IMG/VR virus record: IMGVR_UViG_3300021255_000083 | Location: 32,001-96,000 of that record | From: a virus | Lineage: Duplodnaviria; Caudoviricetes | Reading direction: 5' to 3' (one strand) | DNA: 64,000 bases | Shown: positions 12,783-18,254 of the stretch, piece after piece | Layout of the letters: each line of letters starts with the position of its first letter | How positions within the stretch are numbered: the stretch's first letter is position 1 | Translations under genes and position numbers: made by a program | Notes under the pieces: model-generated | Database searches by the model: none | What the model was told of the DNA's origin: nothing | Seen by the model: only the letters and a program-made list of their open reading frames with translations

Positions 12783-14861
12783 CTATGCCTCCATAAACAT
12801 TGTTATTAACATATCTTTTGTAATACTTTCAATAGATAAATCATAATCAACTTTTTTCTCAACTTTTCTATATAATGTTTCACTACCAGTTTCTGTCTCA
12901 ACTACAACCTCTTCCATTATTTCAGTACAAGGTTTATCAGCTATAATACAACCTGCTTCAGTTAGTAATTCACGCAATGTTAATTGGGCTTTTGGATATT
13001 CTTCACCATAGCTTATAGCCATTTTCTTAACATCTTCTTTAAATCCTGCAATACTTGTATCAGTACTAAAATTATTAAATCTTAATACTACTTTATCCTC
13101 ATTTAATGTAACATATGCTATATCTATATCTGGTATAGTTTTATATTTTGGGTCATAATCAAATTTTGTACTTATTGATGTTATTATATCATTTGGATTT
13201 ATTGTATAATTTTTTGAAACATTTTCATCAGTAGTACTTGCTATAATAAACTCATATGGTACATCGTGATTATTTTGAGTATAGTTCTTTAACTTAATTA
13301 CAAATGTTACCTCTTTTAAACTTGATTTAATTAGTAAACACTCAGTTGCACCATCAGGTAATTGTGCATCCGTCATATCCCCACTATGTACTATATCATC
13401 ACTTCTATAAGATGCATTCCAACCTATATGTTCATTTTCACCTTCTGCGTGTAAATCTAAGTCAACTCTTTGTGTATCTAGGTTTTTCCAATGCACACCT
13501 ATAACCATATTATTATTTCTAGGTATAGTAATTGTTGTGCCAATAGGGAAATTACCCAAAAATTGTTTTTCAGATGTTGGTACTGTATATTCAACATTAT
13601 CTGGTAAATAAATTGTTTTATTTCCTATAATATTATGTACCCTATTATACAAGTGTTCTTCAATTATATTTTTTAAATATAATTGAGCCTTAAATTTATT
13701 ATTTGAACTTTTACCTGCGTGTTCGATATTTTCTAAATATGCCTTACCATTTCTAATTTTATACATCGCAGTATCTACATCATTTAACCTGTATCTTATA
13801 GAGTTTAATATTCTAACCTCTCTAAATACTGTTATAGTATCTAACTTAGACTTTATATCATTAAAAGATATAGTATCTTGTGTTAATCCTGCTGCATCTG
13901 CATTATACTTAAAATATCTATTATAATAAAATTCACCTTTTTCAGAATTCATATTATATATTGATGTAAGCCTATCTAATACATCAAATGGCATATGTTT
14001 ACGATTTGTTCTAGCTGATTTTTTAGCTCTATTAATTATATGATTTAATTCCTTGTCTATCTTTGTTTTAGGGTTATGTGACTTTATTGCTACAAAAAAC
14101 TCATTTTGACTTAAAAATATTTCACCTAGTTTTTTATAGCCATATGGTTTTTGTACATAAGATTTTAATAATCTTAGTGCTTCTTCCTTATCACAATCTG
14201 ATAATACACCCAACAATTCTTTACTTTTTATTAACATTGTACTTCCAGATAATTTATAAACTAAATATCTTAAAAAGTCCATATTATTTTTAGGTACAAT
14301 ACCATATTTATCATATAGAGCTATTTTAACCTCTTTATTATTAATCTCATCAAATTTTTCCTTATCTATATAATCAGATAACATCATTACATCTTCTACA
14401 GTTTGTTTAGATAAAGCTATTCCACTTTTTAGTAATTCTAATAATCTATTACCTAATTCTAACTCTGTTAATTTTACTATAGGTATTAATTTTACATCTT
14501 CATCTAAATCAGGTACTTCAAGTTTTTCGTGTGGTATATATACTAAATCTTGATTATATAAATCCATTGCTTCTAAACCATATGTTGTAAAATAATGTAT
14601 TAATTGCTGTGCAACTAATACTTCTATTGGTGTATCTATTACTGTTTGAAATGATTTATGAAATGTTTGGTTCCATTCTTCAGGTTTTATACCATATAAT
14701 TCTATAGCACTATTTAAAACATCTTCTGATACAGGGTCTTGTATTAATAAACCATTTTCAAGAGCTTTCTGATTTACACTACCTATAAACAAACTCTTGT
14801 CATCTGTATATGCTTTAAATAATCTTAACTCAGCCTTAATTTGTTCTATATTCATAAACAA
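12783..14861 (-). CDS. Large protein with a C-terminal TerD-like stress-response domain
   Basis: IGVHW...RVDLDLH...IGWNASYR...HSGDMTDA...GATE resembles TerD-type motifs. Confidence 0.55.
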   Translation of the reverse strand: MFMNIEQIKAELRLFKAYTDDKSLFIGSVNQKALENGLLIQDPVSEDVLNSAIELYGIKPEEWNQTFHKSFQTVIDTPIEVLVAQQLIHYFTTYGLEAMDLYNQDLVYIPHEKLEVPDLDEDVKLIPIVKLTELELGNRLLELLKSGIALSKQTVEDVMMLSDYIDKEKFDEINNKEVKIALYDKYGIVPKNNMDFLRYLVYKLSGSTMLIKSKELLGVLSDCDKEEALRLLKSYVQKPYGYKKLGEIFLSQNEFFVAIKSHNPKTKIDKELNHIINRAKKSARTNRKHMPFDVLDRLTSIYNMNSEKGEFYYNRYFKYNADAAGLTQDTISFNDIKSKLDTITVFREVRILNSIRYRLNDVDTAMYKIRNGKAYLENIEHAGKSSNNKFKAQLYLKNIIEEHLYNRVHNIIGNKTIYLPDNVEYTVPTSEKQFLGNFPIGTTITIPRNNNMVIGVHWKNLDTQRVDLDLHAEGENEHIGWNASYRSDDIVHSGDMTDAQLPDGATECLLIKSSLKEVTFVIKLKNYTQNNHDVPYEFIIASTTDENVSKNYTINPNDIITSISTKFDYDPKYKTIPDIDIAYVTLNEDKVVLRFNNFSTDTSIAGFKEDVKKMAISYGEEYPKAQLTLRELLTEAGCIIADKPCTEIMEEVVVETETGSETLYRKVEKKVDYDLSIESITKDMLITMFMEA

Positions 14862-15159
14862 CTTCCCCCTCTTTTAATTCATTTTCTATATCATATTTTC
14901 ATAAATATAATTAAGCTCATTATGTATTTCATCTAACTTTTGTTTTGTTCTATTTAATTTATCATTTAACGCAATTAATCTTACTGTCTGATATGTAAAA
15001 TATGCAGTTAAAATAAATATGATTACTATTATAATACACCAAAATAATTTTTTCATAGTTAAACTACTCCAATCTATAATATCTATTATATTATTATAAA
15101 ACACTGTGTCAAAAATGACATCATTTTATCCACTTTTATTACTAGTTATTTAATTAAAT

Positions 15160-15256
15160 AGCAAGTCGAGGAGTAAACTTTTAACTAGCACTACATAAGT
15201 AGTCTAGCTAAATAATGTATTTTTCCCAAAAGACAAGGAACTCCCTTTGACTTGCT
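15160..15256 (-). ncRNA. Y-RNA-like unit 4 (closing stem with an internal hairpin only)
   Basis: GCAAGTC-AAAG-GGAGT-TCCTT...ACTCC-TC-GACTTGC terminal bulged helix shared with the neighbouring units. Confidence 0.55.
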
Positions 15257-15265
15257 TTTATAATT

Positions 15266-15394
15266 AAGTGTCGAGCAGTAACATTTGTGCGGTCGCTCTA
15301 CCAGTTGAGCTACACTATCTTACGATAATGACAGGGCTCGAACCTGTAACAAACTGCTTGGCTTCTATGTTATAAGGAACTGCATTAGACACTT
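15266..15394 (-). ncRNA. YrlA-type Y RNA (permuted tRNA mimic), unit 3
   Basis: T arm ACAGG-TTCGAGC-CCTGT, acceptor CATTATC-GTAA-GATAGTG closed by a GNRA loop, D arm GCTC-AACTGGTA-GAGC, all inside the terminal bulged helix. Confidence 0.72.
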
Positions 15395-15405
15395 TTAAAT
15401 ATTGC

Positions 15406-15484
15406 ATATGGCGAGGTGTAATACTACTTTCAATCCAAATTTGAATGCTCTACTGAGCTAATTAAGGAACACCATTAGCCATAT
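15406..15484 (-). ncRNA. Y-RNA-like unit 2 carrying a D arm and an anticodon-like arm (TTG)
   Basis: Terminal helix ATATGGC...GGTGT-TCCTT...ACACC-TC-GCCATAT around TAGCTCAGTAGAGCA and TTCAA-ATTTGGA-TTGAA. Confidence 0.55.
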
Positions 15485-15501
15485 CATTTAATAAGTCATA
15501 T

Positions 15502-15648
15502 TATAGGCGAAGAGTAGTATAGTGCTCTAGCCAACTGAGCTACAAGTCATAGGCTTCCTCGTATGAGGGCTCTTATTGACTTGGTTGGACTTGAACCAAC
15601 GACCTCTCGATTACCAGTCGAAAATTTAAGGAACTCTATTTGCCTATA
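15502..15648 (-). ncRNA. Y-RNA-like unit 1 containing a complete circularly permuted tRNA-Thr(GGT)-like body
   Basis: Order: anticodon arm TCGA-CTGGTAA-TCGA, T arm GTTGG-TTCAAGT-CCAAC, acceptor 3' CAAGTCA, insert, acceptor 5' TGACTTG, D arm GCTC-AGTTGGCTA-GAGC. Confidence 0.68.
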
Positions 15649-15658
15649 TCCTTCTATT

Positions 15659-15671
15659 ATAATATACCTCA
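15659..15671 (-). promoter_or_regulatory. Phage-specific promoter motif TGAGGTATATTAT, just upstream of the Y-RNA array
   Basis: Same motif at 21673-21685, 41501-41513, 45733-45745, 52485-52497 and a near copy at 50523-50535, each just upstream of a gene start. Confidence 0.65.
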
Positions 15672-15708
15672 AATTAAATTAATTTTTGAACAAATTTTAG
15701 CAAAAAAA

Positions 15709-16410
15709 TTATTTTTTTGCCTCTGTTACTGTATATGTACCATATTTACCAAAACTTAATTCGGTTCTTCTAGCTAGTACTCCCACTGCTAAACCAGATG
15801 CACACATCATTGCTACTAGATTTTCAGCAGAAATTAGTGCTTCATTATAATCTAAATTTAATTTAGTTTCCCAATCATTAAATTTTGAGTATACAGAAAC
15901 AACCATTGCACCCCTTGCATTTTTATTAATTGTTGGTACACACTCCATATCTACTGACGAATATGTTATAGGTGCTTTATCACCCCTAATTATAAACCAA
16001 CTTCTTGGGTCAACTAAATTTTTAGTTAAACCACTTCTATATGCTCCTTTACATATACTTTCTTTAAACGCCTCACAAGGTATATAAAATAAAGCCTTTC
16101 CTGTTTCTTTTTCTTCGTGCATTAATCTAGCTAACTCACTTTTATAATAATCATCATCATAATTATCATTAAGTGTATCAGGTTTTTTAGTTACATCTAT
16201 CCAGTGCATACTGTCAATAAATCTTCTCATATCAGAAGATTTATACTTAACTTGCGGTAACCCATTATCCTTCCTTCTTAAATTATCAATTACTGCTGTA
16301 GGTCTACACTGCATAGCTAATGGTGCTAGCCCTTTAACTGTAACTTCTAAACTTTTCCATCTGTATGTAAATTGTACCTCTTTTGTATTATCGTCTTTTT
16401 TTGTAGCCAT
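15709..16410 (-). CDS. Cas7/RAMP-like protein (Vipr-like candidate effector), 233 aa
   Basis: AAGGAGG RBS before ATG 16410; N-terminal strand LEVTVKGLAPL, YIPCEAFKESI (cf. RAMP IPGSSxKG), C-terminal Gly-rich loop SGLAVGVLARRTELSFGKYGTY; adjacent to the periodic array. Confidence 0.62.
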   Translation of the reverse strand: MATKKDDNTKEVQFTYRWKSLEVTVKGLAPLAMQCRPTAVIDNLRRKDNGLPQVKYKSSDMRRFIDSMHWIDVTKKPDTLNDNYDDDYYKSELARLMHEEKETGKALFYIPCEAFKESICKGAYRSGLTKNLVDPRSWFIIRGDKAPITYSSVDMECVPTINKNARGAMVVSVYSKFNDWETKLNLDYNEALISAENLVAMMCASGLAVGVLARRTELSFGKYGTYTVTEAKK

Positions 16411-16564
16411 AACAACTACCTCCTTATAAAATATTTTTAGATACAATAAATTTTTCACTACTTACTAAATAGACCCACTTACAACATCTATTAGTTTATT
16501 TCATTACTTAATTTAATGCTCCATACAATATATTATGATTTAATATACTCTATGGGGCATTAAA

Positions 16565-17480
16565 CCCCTCATTAACAGACTATGCTGTTCTTCAACAAAC
16601 TTTAGAAAACCTCAAACAACAAGATTGCAAATGAATGCATCGCATTGTACGCCTCTTCACTTTAACACCTGCCTCCTACCAAAATACTATATAAGTATTT
16701 TCTAATATGAAATAATTTACACTAGAAGATACTTATTTGTATCTTCTAATAAAAATATAATCAACAAAAAATTATCCCAAAACACTGAAATTTATCTTAA
16801 TGAAAACAAAATCACCCAACAGTAACACCACCACCTACCTAGATATATTAATATCTCTTGCAAAATACCAACTTTTAATATTCTCCAAGAGGTACTAATC
16901 GTACCTCATTTACAGTTTGTCACAACGTTTTACTTTGCTGCACATTAATCCACGTCACAGTAAATTAACACCTACCACCTACCAAAATACCCTATAAGTA
17001 TTTTCTAATATGAAATAATTTATACTAGAAGATACTTAATAGTATCTTCTTCGTTTTTGTAAGTGGTTCACACATTATTATAAAAAGCAGTAACCCACAA
17101 AACTAAACACCAACTTTGATAACTTTAATGTATTGTAACACCTACCACCTACCAAGATATATAAAATATCTTCTACTATAAACCATTTCACATTAGAAGA
17201 TACTTATTTGTATCTTCTTTTAAATATATTAAACACTCAACACGACAGCACTAAAAATCAATCTAAAACACATAACACTACCGCACAATATATAAACACC
17301 ACCACCTACCTAGATATATTAATATCTCACACAATTTACAACTAATTATAAACTCTGTGAGGCACTAATGTACCTCATATTACCTACAATAAATTGAGAC
17401 ATAGAAATATACAAATAAGTAAGTTACAGAATTATACATCAAACTACACTAAAGAAATACAACACCGACCACCCCCACAA
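16565..17480 (-). repeat. Six-unit non-coding guide-like array: conserved handle, 5-nt-periodic variable tract, three-hairpin linker (VIPR-like)
   Basis: Handle GGTAGGWGGY(A)GGTGTT at 17295-17310, 17137-17153, 16967-16983, 16824-16839 and 16664-16680, with a variant at 17461-17477; each is followed by 11-19 pentamers NN+DDT. Confidence 0.85.
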
Positions 17481-17487
17481 AGTACAT

Positions 17488-18021
17488 TTAAATCTGTAAC
17501 CTATCTATTGCATCAAATATATCTTTCAACTCAATTATAGATATATACTTCTGTTGCCAGTATAATAAATCTTTATATGCATCTTTTTTAAGTTGTTCAT
17601 ATGTATCTTCATTACTTACAATTCTAAATGTTGAACTATATCCTTTAGCATTTGATAAATGTGTATAAGGTTGAAAGTTTACCTTATATGTTACAGGTTT
17701 GTCGTTATTATCCCTTGCTGTAATTGTAACAACTCTCAAATTATACACAATTTGATGTATTTGTTGTAGCCTGTACTTTTTACCTGCTATAGTATCATTC
17801 CATTCAAGACCCTTATATATTTCAGAACTTTTGTTATTTTCAGCATATAGATATATGTTTTCATCTTGTAAATTACCAAACTCAGCATTAATTTCAACAA
17901 ATTCACTAAACACTTTATTAGCATCTAATTTTATTCTGCTAGCCTTCACAAACTCACACTTAGTTACATTACCCTCACTAAGCTCTTTTATATCTAAATT
18001 ATATAGCATCTTTTCTTCCAT
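17488..18021 (-). CDS. Conserved phage hypothetical protein directly upstream of the array; candidate accessory protein
   Basis: 177 aa; LEWNDTIAGKKYRLQQIHQIVYNLRVV motif; stop codon about 10 bp from the first handle. Confidence 0.6.
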   Translation of the reverse strand: MEEKMLYNLDIKELSEGNVTKCEFVKASRIKLDANKVFSEFVEINAEFGNLQDENIYLYAENNKSSEIYKGLEWNDTIAGKKYRLQQIHQIVYNLRVVTITARDNNDKPVTYKVNFQPYTHLSNAKGYSSTFRIVSNEDTYEQLKKDAYKDLLYWQQKYISIIELKDIFDAIDRLQI

Positions 18022-18023
18022 AA

Positions 18024-18254
18024 CTACCTCTTATTTTCTCTAATTATCTTCCAAATATCATAGTCATATGATACTTTACTTTCAACTTCTGTAACAACAT
18101 TTTTCAAGCACAATGTAACATCTATTACATCTTTAGCTAACATTGAATATGTATGTTGTATATCTGTTACTAGATACTTTGTATCATATTTTTGTCCTTG
18201 TATAATATCTCCTATTTCTAATGGTATCCATATATTATATCCTGCTGTTTGCAT
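18024..18254 (-). CDS. Hypothetical protein
   Basis: ORF with GGAG RBS. Confidence 0.55.
   Translation of the reverse strand: MQTAGYNIWIPLEIGDIIQGQKYDTKYLVTDIQHTYSMLAKDVIDVTLCLKNVVTEVESKVSYDYDIWKIIRENKR

What the first reader, a model, noticed from the sequence alone, without database searches (positions are those of the whole stretch)
15709..18021. Cas7/RAMP-like gene with a 5-nt-periodic guide array: candidate RNA-guided system using a non-contiguous code
Seen: about 900 bp of non-coding DNA between two genes holds six units. Each has a G-rich handle ending GGTGTT, then 11-19 pentamers in which the 5th base is almost always T, bases 3-4 rarely contain C and bases 1-2 vary freely (unit 17294-17235: TATAT ATTGT GCGGT AGTGT TATGT GTTTT AGATT GATTT TTAGT GCTGT CGTGT TGAGT), then a three-hairpin linker. 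The downstream protein has RAMP hallmarks (IPxxxxK, terminal Gly-rich loop). There are no cas1/cas2 genes and no CRISPR repeat-spacer layout. Inference: one subunit binds each pentamer and the NN pairs jointly specify a gapped target. From memory (not verified here) this parallels the reported phage VIPR systems with GGY/NN repeats, but here the constant triplet has drifted to an AT-rich DDT, a variant a GGY-based search would miss.
Basis: partly seen in the sequence, partly recalled or inferred. Interest (0 to 1): 0.9.

Follow-up and report, generated by a model that had tools for sequence, protein, structure and literature searches.

The report
Divergent VIPR guide-RNA system, jumbo phage
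A 209-kb gut or rumen phage carries a real VIPR system, a CRISPR-related kind first described in 2026 (a lone Cas7-like protein plus six guide RNAs written in five-base steps); its guides spell replication genes of rival phages, and this branch keeps only one fixed letter per step, having lost the protein residues that normally hold the two G's.

Summary
Observation confirmed. On the minus strand, 16411-17487 holds six units between a 177-aa gene and a 233-aa gene. Each unit has a G-rich handle, then 12-16 pentamers with T at one fixed phase (74/86, p~1e-18), then a structured linker.

The protein is a Vipr. The AF2 model (pLDDT 94.6) matches Cas7/Csm3/Cmr4, and a 99-sequence profile hits only the SUSP1 Vipr protein in the PDB (E 7e-16).

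So this is a member of the published VIPR class, which this scan has already met 94 times on other DNA. Non-canonical repeats (YNNNG, WGT/NN) are already in print.

What is specific to this branch:
- All four residues that read the two G's in SUSP1 Vipr are replaced clade-wide (Q34, Y174, A213, R214). The pyrimidine-contacting Arg is kept, which matches a repeat reduced to xT-NNN.
- Two of the six window guides, read by the published period-3 rule, fall in frame on rival-phage genes: DUF2800 nuclease (27/30) and AAA_24 ATPase (22/24).
- Relatives' guides hit the integrase start, the SSB gene and neighbouring genes of the same phage families.
- The third variable base behaves like a codon's wobble base, so it may be read too.

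Expression, RNP formation and DNA binding are not shown.

The parts
15709..16410 (-). vipr gene (233 aa, P0001): lone RAMP/Cas7-fold protein of the Vipr family
   Evidence: The AF2 model built with 99 sequences has pLDDT 94.6. Foldseek's top hits are Csm3, Cmr4 and type VII Cas7. VIA-align gives Z up to 10.5, and about 45 of 50 rows are CRISPR RAMPs. Profile A2 hits only SUSP1 Vipr (36pp_D) in the PDB, E 6.9e-16. It is the only copy in the genome.
16411..17487 (-). array of six vrRNA-like units. Each has a handle with 3-4 GG doublets, a tract of xT-NNN pentamers and a structured linker.
   Evidence: Sequence, handles, pentamer print-out, composition and units. The same architecture lies upstream of vipr in 16 related loci.
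17383..17476 (-). unit 1: variant handle (GGGGGTGGTCGGTG) and a tract of about 16 pentamers (guide W1)
   Evidence: No target was found for it.
   Evidence: A near-identical guide sits in the 93%-identical relative L008. No target was found.
17059..17153 (-). unit 3: handle at 17153-17139 and a tract of about 13-16 pentamers (guide W3)
   Evidence: There was no exact target. One marginal local hit was rejected.
16909..16983 (-). unit 4: handle at 16983-16969 and a tract of 12 pentamers (guide W4). Its predicted target is an AAA_24 ATPase gene of AT-rich phages.
   Evidence: The period-3 pattern finds 21 IMG/VR contigs, all in frame on the motif NTDGNAKKVDT, with 22/24 NN matches. The best hits share 29 contiguous identical bases with the guide triplets. 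The gene matches Pfam AAA_24 at E 2e-31.
16746..16839 (-). unit 5: handle at 16839-16826 and a tract of about 16 pentamers (guide W5)
   Evidence: No target was found.
16591..16680 (-). unit 6: handle (GGTAGGAGGCAGGTG) at 16680-16666 and a tract of 15 pentamers (guide W6). Its predicted target is a DUF2800 / PD-(D/E)XK nuclease gene of temperate phages.
   Evidence: The period-3 pattern finds 3 viral and 7 metagenome contigs and one of three genome-contig hits (a Galactobacillus MAG; the other two, at NN 23-24/30, look like chance or distant homologues). They lie in frame on GTAAHALCEFKL, and all but one metagenome contig (25/30) match 27/30 NN. The gene matches Pfam DUF2800 at E 3e-149.
17311..17382 (-). 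linker after unit 1: a GC-rich hairpin, a long covarying hairpin with a conserved GAG/UUG G-G mismatch, and a short hairpin abutting the next handle. Linkers of the same type follow unit 4 (about 16840-16908) and unit 6 (about 16500-16590).
   Evidence: The linker alignment and RNAalifold give 12 of 18 pairs with compensatory changes. A second linker type, with AGAAGATAC hairpins, follows units 2, 3 and 5.
17488..18021 (-). upstream gene (177 aa, P0002): candidate vipr-accessory (vap) gene, function unknown
   Evidence: A homologous 160-178-aa ORF sits directly upstream of the array in the related loci. It matches phrog_15946, of unknown function. It has no Pfam or PADLOC hit. The Atlas places it only with hypothetical viral proteins.

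Best explanation
The locus vap-like gene / six guide genes / vipr is a VIPR system of a complete 208.7-kb phage.

By homology with the solved SUSP1 complex, Vipr protomers would coat each guide RNA one pentamer at a time. They would hold the constant pyrimidine (here U) in a pocket and present the variable bases to double-stranded DNA. Five guide bases correspond to three target bases.

The guides spell, in the sense and mostly in the frame of the coding strand, conserved stretches of genes of rival, mostly temperate, phages of the same hosts. These are replication and recombination genes (DUF2800 nuclease, AAA_24 ATPase, PF10991 SSB) and the start of the integrase gene. The likely role is transcriptional silencing of competing or resident phages during infection.

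This branch differs from the characterised systems. The residues that grip the two G's of GGY are all replaced and the repeat has shrunk to xT-NNN. A 5' handle of 3-4 GG doublets and a covarying 3' hairpin frame each guide.

Shown here: fold, family membership, architecture, residue changes, and in-frame target matches under a period-3 rule.
Inferred: expression, filament assembly, DNA binding, silencing, and the biological role.
For: Fold. The AF2 model has pLDDT 94.6. Foldseek's top hits are Csm3, Cmr4 and Cas7, with 46 hits at E<=1e-3. VIA-align gives Z up to 10.5.

Family. The profile of the clade alone hits SUSP1 Vipr at E 3e-4. The 99-sequence profile hits it at E 6.9e-16 over residues 2-188 of 202, with no other PDB hit. 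1263 representative relatives of 150-270 aa exist. The nearest outgroup proteins, which keep the canonical residues, carry xGY-NN arrays right after the gene.

Residues. SUSP1 H17, R138, D177 and W178 read G1 and G2, and R179 contacts Y3 (paper 10.64898/2026.04.26.720927). The aligned positions here are Q34, Y174, A213 and R214 in 20-21 of 21 clade members. Other relatives have H/N, R, E/D and W. R215 is kept in all.

RNA. T sits at a fixed phase in 91% of 543 pentamers from 42 unique tracts of the clade.

Targets.
- W6 matches DUF2800 at 27/30.
- W4 matches AAA_24 at 22/24 in 21 contigs.
- Guides of relatives match the ribosome site and start of an integrase gene (30/33 contiguous) and the SSB gene (29/36) of one provirus. 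That provirus also carries DUF2800 and PolA.
- Two more relatives' guides hit the AAA_24-bearing contigs.

Rule test. On 429 kb of target contigs, skip 0, 2 and 3 give 0 guides above the shuffled null, skip 1 gives 7, and the xT control gives 0.

Background. Four other real guide patterns of equal size gave 0 hits, so chance matches are rare. There are no self-targets, as in the paper.

Context. The genome is a virus record with terminal repeats, no Cas1 and one vipr.
Against: - Promoter and terminator scans are at chance level for promoters.
- Four of the six window guides have no identified target.
- The database targets of W6 have 37-58% GC and match the third base only 5-7 times in 15, so they may be homologues of the true target and not the target itself.
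- The local rule comparison used contigs that were partly collected with period-3 patterns. Three or four of the hits are independent of that choice.
- The defining GGY motif and its four contact residues are absent, so binding geometry cannot simply be copied from SUSP1.
Confidence: 0.85

Rival explanations
1. It is a VIPR system that follows exactly the published rule. Only the first two variable bases of each pentamer pair with the target, every third target base is skipped, and the third 'variable' base is just a decayed G1 with no role in recognition.
For: - The published rule alone finds the targets.
- The sampled W6 targets match 27/30 at NN but only 5-7/15 at the third base.
- L008 guide 3 matches 29/36 at NN and 4/18 at the third base.
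- In the SUSP1 structure the third target base is flipped into a pocket.
- An earlier scan note on a YG-NNN variant concluded that relatives' guides read by the published rule.
Against: - In the integrase-guide family from seven phages, the base before T varies in 6 of 6 columns while the third variable base varies in 1 of 6.
- Over all homologous guide pairs the third base differs in 19% of comparisons and the free base in 51%.
- Stop codons in the triplet frame number 22 against 31.3 +/- 3.4 when third bases are permuted (P 0.005).
- At every two-fold or single codon of three guide-target pairs the guide's third base is synonymous. The chance is about 3e-6 for two pairs, lower with W4.
- The best W4 targets are identical over 29 contiguous bases.
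- The four GG-reading residues are gone.
Confidence: 0.45
2. It is a VIPR system with an extended code. All three variable bases of each pentamer pair with three consecutive target bases, so the target is read without gaps while the guide loops out two bases (xU) per step.
For: The evidence is the same as that listed against the first rival. In addition, the three-base contiguous rule lifts 10 guides above the null against 7 for the two-base rule. The integrase guides match 25-30 contiguous bases although their triplets are out of the codon frame, so their third bases are not wobble positions.
Against: - There is no direct test.
- The first integrase hit was found with a contiguous 17-mer, which biases that case. 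Only the extension (13 of 16 further bases) is unbiased.
- Guide pairs are not independent.
- Third-base agreement could be inherited from the birth of a guide and not maintained by pairing.
- The sampled W6 targets would be poorly matched under this rule.
Confidence: 0.4
3. The array is not a guide array. It could be a set of small structured RNAs or phased DNA-bending or protein-binding repeats that merely sit next to a RAMP-like gene.
For: Isolated T-periodic windows occur by chance elsewhere in this AT-rich genome. No expression data exist.
Against: - Six tracts are phased from a conserved handle.
- The same layout lies next to the same gene in 16 related loci, with the variable bases turning over.
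- In-frame matches to phage genes appear only under the period-3 reading.
- The protein belongs to the Vipr family.
Confidence: 0.03
4. The system targets RNA, like type III CRISPR Cas7 backbones, and not DNA.
For: The closest solved folds are Csm3 and Cmr4, which are RNA-targeting backbones.
Against: All identified guides have the same sense as the coding strand of their targets, so they cannot pair with the mRNA. The solved relative binds double-stranded DNA.
Confidence: 0.05

Closest known systems
Type II VIPR of Escherichia phage SUSP1 (Vipr + vap1 + vrRNAs; bioRxiv 10.64898/2026.04.26.720920, .720927, 2026.10.15.759431; PDB 36pp)
   Same: - A lone RAMP protein of about 200-230 aa, related in sequence (E 6.9e-16 by profile).
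- A small partner gene.
- Several roughly 100-nt guide units in the flanking intergenic DNA, each made of 12-16 five-base steps plus a structured part.
- A phage genome with no cas1/cas2.
- Guide triplet steps that map to three target bases, mostly in the codon frame.
- Targets that are genes of rival mobile elements, including a recombinase/integrase.
   Different: - The repeat keeps only U (xU-NNN) instead of GGY-NN.
- The four GG-contact residues are replaced (H17Q, R138Y, D177A, W178R).
- A conserved 5' handle of 3-4 GG doublets precedes the tract.
- The 3' element is a covarying hairpin set, with no evident pseudoknot.
- The array lies between the partner gene and vipr.
- The host phage is a 209-kb AT-rich gut/rumen phage.
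- The third base may be read.
Non-canonical VIPR repeat variants already in print: NNNGG, YNNNG and NNNNG (10.64898/2026.04.26.720920, methods); GAC/NN, CAC/NN, WGT/NN and TGH/NN clusters (10.64898/2026.10.21.760802)
   Same: Five-base period next to a Vipr-like fold, with one or more positions of the constant triplet degenerate. YNNNG and WGT/NN are close to the pattern here.
   Different: Here the G2-equivalent base is also mostly lost (G 35%, T 36%, A 24%). Those papers give no targeting rule, contact-residue analysis or natural targets for such variants in the text I could read. Their tables were not available, so I cannot tell whether this clade is among their clusters.
Class 1 CRISPR Cas7 backbone subunits (Csm3, Cmr4, type VII Cas7)
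   Same: RRM core, thumb hairpin and glycine-rich loop. One subunit per fixed number of guide bases, with periodic base flipping.
   Different: No CRISPR array, no Cas1/2, Cas5, Cas6, Cas10 or Cas11. The period is 5 instead of 6. The guides are genomically hard-wired units with their own handle.

Membership tests
VIPR (Vipr + vrRNA) | Lone RAMP protein (RRM core, thumb, G-loop) homologous to Vipr | tested here: met
   The model has pLDDT 94.6. The profile hits SUSP1 Vipr at E 6.9e-16 with no other PDB hit.
VIPR (Vipr + vrRNA) | Tandem five-base repeats (about 9-16 per RNA) in the intergenic DNA flanking vipr | tested here: met
   Six tracts of 12-16 pentamers are phased from a handle, with T at a fixed phase in 74/86 (p 1.6e-18). 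The same holds in 16 related loci.
VIPR (Vipr + vrRNA) | Repeat consensus GGY/NN | tested here: not met
   Only the Y3-equivalent is kept (T 91%). The G2-equivalent is G 35/T 36/A 24% and the G1-equivalent is A 45/T 32/G 17%. The papers allow 'a related consensus'.
VIPR (Vipr + vrRNA) | GG-reading residues of SUSP1 Vipr (H17, R138, D177, W178) and the Y3 contact R179 | tested here: not met
   The aligned residues are Q34, Y174, A213 and R214 in the whole clade. Only R179 is kept, as R215. This rests on profile alignment, not on a structure.
VIPR (Vipr + vrRNA) | Conserved structured part attached to the repeat tract | tested here: met
   The linker hairpin has 12 of 18 covarying pairs. Whether it is the 3' tail of one RNA or the 5' leader of the next is unknown.
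VIPR (Vipr + vrRNA) | Targets follow a two-read, one-skip rule (period 3), mostly aligned so that the skipped base is the wobble position | tested here: met
   Relatives' guides are. Only the period-3 rules rise above the null. This is computational only.
VIPR (Vipr + vrRNA) | Viral genome, minimal locus with an accessory (vap) gene, no CRISPR array or adaptation genes | tested here: met
   The genome is a virus record with terminal repeats and no Cas1. A conserved upstream ORF is present. Its function and any likeness to vap1-6 were not established.
VIPR (Vipr + vrRNA) | vrRNAs are expressed and co-purify with Vipr; the complex binds and silences double-stranded DNA | not testable with these tools
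CRISPR-Cas class 1 | CRISPR repeat-spacer array with cas1/cas2 and a multi-subunit effector | tested here: not met
   No Cas1 is in the genome, no 25-40-nt direct-repeat array in the region, and there is a single RAMP gene.
Hammerhead-interspersed VIPR arrays (types I and V) | Self-cleaving ribozyme between guide units | tested here: inconclusive
   No Rfam ribozyme reaches E<=1 in 14800-18100. The conserved linker hairpin with a G-G mismatch has no known family.

The most novel reading that the evidence does not exclude
In this Vipr branch the loss of the GG-binding pocket has freed the first base of the former GGY. Each protomer would then present three guide bases, which would read three consecutive target bases. 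This is a 3-of-5 code that recognises an ungapped target, instead of the published 2-of-5 code that skips every third target base. It would come with a matched set of four protein substitutions that could be used to switch between the two codes.
Probability: 0.35. Interest if true: 0.75.

Novelty: new variant of a known kind. Interest (0 to 1): 0.5.

Why it matters
VIPR is a months-old class whose appeal is a programmable, non-contiguous code for binding double-stranded DNA.

This locus gives a natural test of what sets that code. A whole branch has swapped all four residues that grip the two G's and kept the pyrimidine contact. Its RNAs have lost exactly those two G's and kept the pyrimidine.

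If the freed base is read, the branch offers higher information per protomer (three bases instead of two) and a defined route to re-engineer specificity. If it is not read, the branch shows how little constant sequence a Vipr filament needs, which matters for search pipelines that look for GGY.

The decoded targets are integrase, SSB, DUF2800 and AAA_24 genes of temperate and AT-rich phages. They extend the published picture of VIPR as a weapon between mobile elements to large gut/rumen phages.

Tried and rejected
- Single-sequence AF2 gave a useless model (pLDDT 38). It was replaced by the 99-sequence run.
- blastn of the locus against GenBank phages gave no match.
- The search for related loci in IMG/VR gave only one relative. 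Other loci came from exact-protein look-ups.
- Pfam and PADLOC gave nothing for either protein. PHROGs gave only families of unknown function.
- Rfam at E<=1 found nothing on the array and no ribozyme.
- The six window guides were searched in the phage's own genome under skips 0-3. All scores were at null level.
- Period-3 patterns of guides W1, W2, W3 and W5 in IMG/VR gave 0 hits each.
- A marginal local hit for W3 (33/48) lies in a stretch with stop codons and was rejected.
- Two of the three 17-mer hits for the integrase guide (L018, L019) do not extend and are taken as chance.
- Of the genome-contig hits for W6, the Rubrivivax (67% GC) and Eisenbergiella hits look like chance or distant homologues.
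- The other window guides do not hit the full genomes of the W6 and integrase target phages.
- The promoter scan was at chance level. Two terminator-like hairpins sit inside the linkers, so transcript ends stay unknown.
- Folding one unit alone was uninformative (z -1.2).
- A genome-wide scan showed that 5-nt T periodicity alone is not unique to the array.
- The protein Atlas for the partner gene gave only hypothetical viral clusters.
- Complex prediction was not used, because a pass or fail would not have changed the reading.
Full report
**What is there**

The window is bases 32001-96000 of a complete 208,728-bp virus record with direct terminal repeats. All features of the finding lie on the minus strand.

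- A 177-aa ORF (18021-17488, P0002) comes first.
- It is followed by 1077 bp without an ORF (17487-16411).
- A 233-aa ORF follows (16410-15709, P0001), starting at an ATG behind AAGGAGG.

The non-coding stretch holds six units. Each begins with a G-rich handle of three or four GG doublets. Five read GGTAGG(T/A)GG..GTG and the first is a variant. The handle occurs nowhere else in the genome.

I counted pentamers from the base after the handle, so the phase is fixed by the handle and not fitted. The fifth base is T in 74 of 86 pentamers, against 40% T in the region (p 1.6e-18). The fourth base is mostly G or T, the third mostly T or A, and the first two are variable.

Isolated windows with 11-12 of 12 periodic T also occur by chance in T-rich coding DNA of this 29% GC genome. 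The evidence is therefore the six phased tracts, not periodicity as such.

Between units there are hairpins. In an alignment of 17 linkers from the window and its relatives, RNAalifold finds a stem in which 12 of 18 pairs are kept through changes on both sides. The stem has an invariant GAG/UUG pair of strands around a G-G mismatch. No Rfam family, ribozymes included, matches the array at E<=1.

**The protein**

Pfam and PADLOC find nothing, and PHROGs gives a family of unknown function. A word-indexed search found 46 relatives at 51-94% identity, mostly on contigs of about 200 kb. A profile of 25 of them found 1263 representative proteins of similar size at E<=1e-3.

Folded with 99 of these sequences, the protein gives a confident model (pLDDT 94.6, pTM 0.87); folded alone, it gave pLDDT 38.

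- Foldseek's best 26 matches are all Cas7-type subunits: Csm3, Cmr4 and type VII Cas7.
- The independent VIA-align search gives Z up to 10.5, and about 45 of its 50 rows are CRISPR RAMPs.
- The sequence profile hits exactly one thing in the PDB, 'SUSP1 Vipr protein' (36pp_D). The clade profile gives E 3e-4 and the 99-sequence profile gives E 6.9e-16 over residues 2-188 of 202.

**What is known**

A preprint of April 2026 describes Vipr, an accessory vap gene and vrRNAs made of 9-16 YNNGG repeats plus a structured tail. The NN bases pair with double-stranded DNA while every third target base is skipped, mostly the codon wobble base, and the targets lie in rival phages and satellites.

Its methods already list alternative repeats: NNNGG, YNNNG and NNNNG. 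The structure paper names the contacts. H17 and D177 read G1. R138 and W178 read G2. R179, with E71, M72, C173 and T175, forms the pyrimidine pocket. A third paper shows that SUSP1 silences a satellite's recombinase. A fourth (October 2026) reports 21 clusters with non-canonical repeats such as WGT/NN and TGH/NN next to Vipr-like folds.

This scan has 94 earlier VIPR-like findings in at least 82 genomes. The class is therefore known, and degenerate repeats as such are known.

**What is particular here**

(a) Residues. In the 99-sequence alignment the positions aligned to SUSP1 H17, R138, D177 and W178 are Q34, Y174, A213 and R214 in 20-21 of the 21 clade members. The other 78 relatives mostly have H/N, R (71 of 78), E/D and W. 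The position aligned to R179 is Arg in all.

(b) RNA. I collected 16 related loci. All have the same order: partner ORF, array, vipr. They have the same handle and tracts of 7-18 pentamers.

Over 543 pentamers from 42 unique tracts, written as x-T-N1-N2-N3, the composition is as follows:

| Position | Equivalent in GGY/NN | Composition |
|---|---|---|
| T | Y3 | T 91% |
| x | G2 | G 35, T 36, A 24, C 5% |
| N3 | G1 | A 45, T 32, G 17, C 5%, like N1 and N2 |

So the two G's are lost in the RNA and their four readers are lost in the protein, while the pyrimidine and its Arg are kept.

(c) Control. The nearest outgroup proteins keep the canonical residues. They have arrays of (G/x)G(T/C)NN pentamers directly after the gene.

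**Targets**

None of the six window guides matches the phage's own genome under skips 0-3, as the paper also found for its guides. I then wrote N1N2 of ten consecutive pentamers as a period-3 pattern (20 specified bases) and scanned the public collections.

- W6 gave 3 viral, 7 metagenome and 3 genome contigs. Apart from two genome contigs that look like chance or distant homologues (NN 23-24/30), they lie in frame on one motif (GTAAHALCEFKL) of a DUF2800 / PD-(D/E)XK gene. Ten of the eleven match 27 of 30 N1N2 bases, including triplets outside the query; one metagenome contig matches 25 of 30.
- W4 gave 21 AT-rich viral contigs, all in frame on NTDGNAKKVDT of an AAA_24 ATPase gene, with 22/24 matches. 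In the best ones, 29 consecutive bases equal the guide's concatenated triplets.
- W1, W2, W3 and W5 gave no exact hit. This also shows that such patterns rarely match by chance.

Guides of relatives tell the same story.

- One guide family present in seven phages matches 25-30 contiguous bases at the ribosome site and start codon of the integrase gene of a complete 55-kb provirus.
- A guide of the 93%-identical relative L008 matches that provirus's PF10991 SSB gene at 29/36. The same provirus carries DUF2800 and PolA, and W6 aligns in frame at the homologous site at 21/30.
- Two further guides (from L006 and L008) hit genes on the AAA_24-bearing contigs at 26/30 and 30/36.

On the pooled 429 kb of target contigs, with 37 guides and shuffled-order nulls, the rules compare as follows:

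| Rule | Guides above the null |
|---|---|
| N1N2 with skip 0, 2 or 3 | 0 |
| N1N2 with skip 1 | 7 |
| N1N2N3 with no skip | 10 |
| xT control | 0 |

The contig set was partly collected with period-3 patterns, so only the three or four guides not used for collection are independent.

All guides have the sense of the coding strand. That fits DNA targets and not mRNA targets.

**Is the third base read?**

Several observations say that N3 is not a decayed, free position.

- In the seven-phage integrase family, x varies in 6 of 6 core columns and N3 in 1 of 6, although here N3 falls on a first codon position, not a wobble position.
- Over all homologous guide pairs N3 differs in 19% of comparisons and x in 51% (the pairs are not independent).
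- Read as codons, the guides have 22 stops against 31.3 +/- 3.4 when third bases are permuted within guides (P 0.005). Many of the remaining stops are terminal.
- At every two-fold or single codon of the W6, L008-3 and W4 alignments, the guide's third base is synonymous with the target protein. The chance is about 3e-6 for the first two.

Against this, the sampled W6 and SSB targets agree poorly at the third base. In SUSP1 the third target base is flipped out of the duplex. I have no cognate AT-rich target for most guides. I put the three-base reading at about 0.35-0.4 and the plain published rule at about 0.45. Both are versions of the main explanation.

**Mechanism proposed**

This is inferred from the SUSP1 structures. 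The array is transcribed with the genes and cut or terminated into units. The GG-doublet handle may set the register or nucleate assembly; this is unsupported. Vipr protomers bind one pentamer each, holding U through the conserved Arg pocket. The filament scans DNA and forms a gapped R-loop on sites that match the triplets. It silences replication, recombination and integration genes of resident or co-infecting phages.

The conserved partner ORF is a candidate vap of unknown function.

**Not done**

The supplementary tables of the VIPR papers are not held, so I cannot say whether this clade is already in their lists.

**Verdict**

This is a real VIPR system. It belongs to a divergent branch with a coherent protein-RNA change and decodable natural targets. 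The kind is known. The variant is informative but only partly new.

Noticed in passing
window 15292-15640 (minus strand), just downstream of vipr: tRNA-like pieces lie here. Rfam gives sub-threshold tRNA hits and two Y-RNA-like (YrlA) hits (E 1.7e-5 and 8.8e-5), and a T-arm-like and a D-arm-like stretch are visible in the sequence. ARAGORN calls no tRNA here. They may be permuted, split or intron-bearing tRNA-like genes.
   Followed up: no
window 17311-17382, about 16840-16908 and about 16500-16590 (minus); also linkers in L001, L003-L009, L012, L015, L016: A conserved structured element sits between guide units. It is a long hairpin with many compensatory changes and an invariant GAG/UUG pair of strands around a G-G mismatch. 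It has no Rfam family. It could be a processing or protein-binding site.
   Followed up: partly
window handles at 17310-17297, 17153-17139, 16983-16969, 16839-16826, 16680-16666: Every handle is three or four GG doublets spaced by 1-2 bases (GGTAGGTGGTGG, and GGTTGGTGGTTGG in relatives). That is the form of a two-tetrad G-quadruplex motif. It could also be a compressed run of canonical GGY units. Its role is unknown.
   Followed up: no
L008 (IMGVR_UViG_3300028805_000375) against window 16411-17487: The relative whose Vipr is 93% identical shares guide W2 almost exactly, but its other two guides differ from the window's guides. Guides therefore turn over faster than the protein.
   Followed up: partly
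window 17059-17231 and 16746-16908 (minus): linkers after units 2, 3 and 5: A second linker type lacks the covarying hairpin. It has instead two hairpins built from the same word (AGAAGATAC / GTATCTTCT), which could pair with each other in alternative ways.
   Followed up: no
G001 = IMGVR_UViG_3300029722_000175, 54023-54060: Guides from seven different phages of this clade converge on the ribosome site and start codon of this provirus's integrase gene. Their triplets are out of the codon frame, unlike most other guides.
   Followed up: partly
whole genome (earlier notes of this scan, not tested here): Other agents report that this phage reads in-frame CGGN as one glycine with a one-base frame step. 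The vipr and partner ORFs are continuous and need no such step.
   Followed up: no
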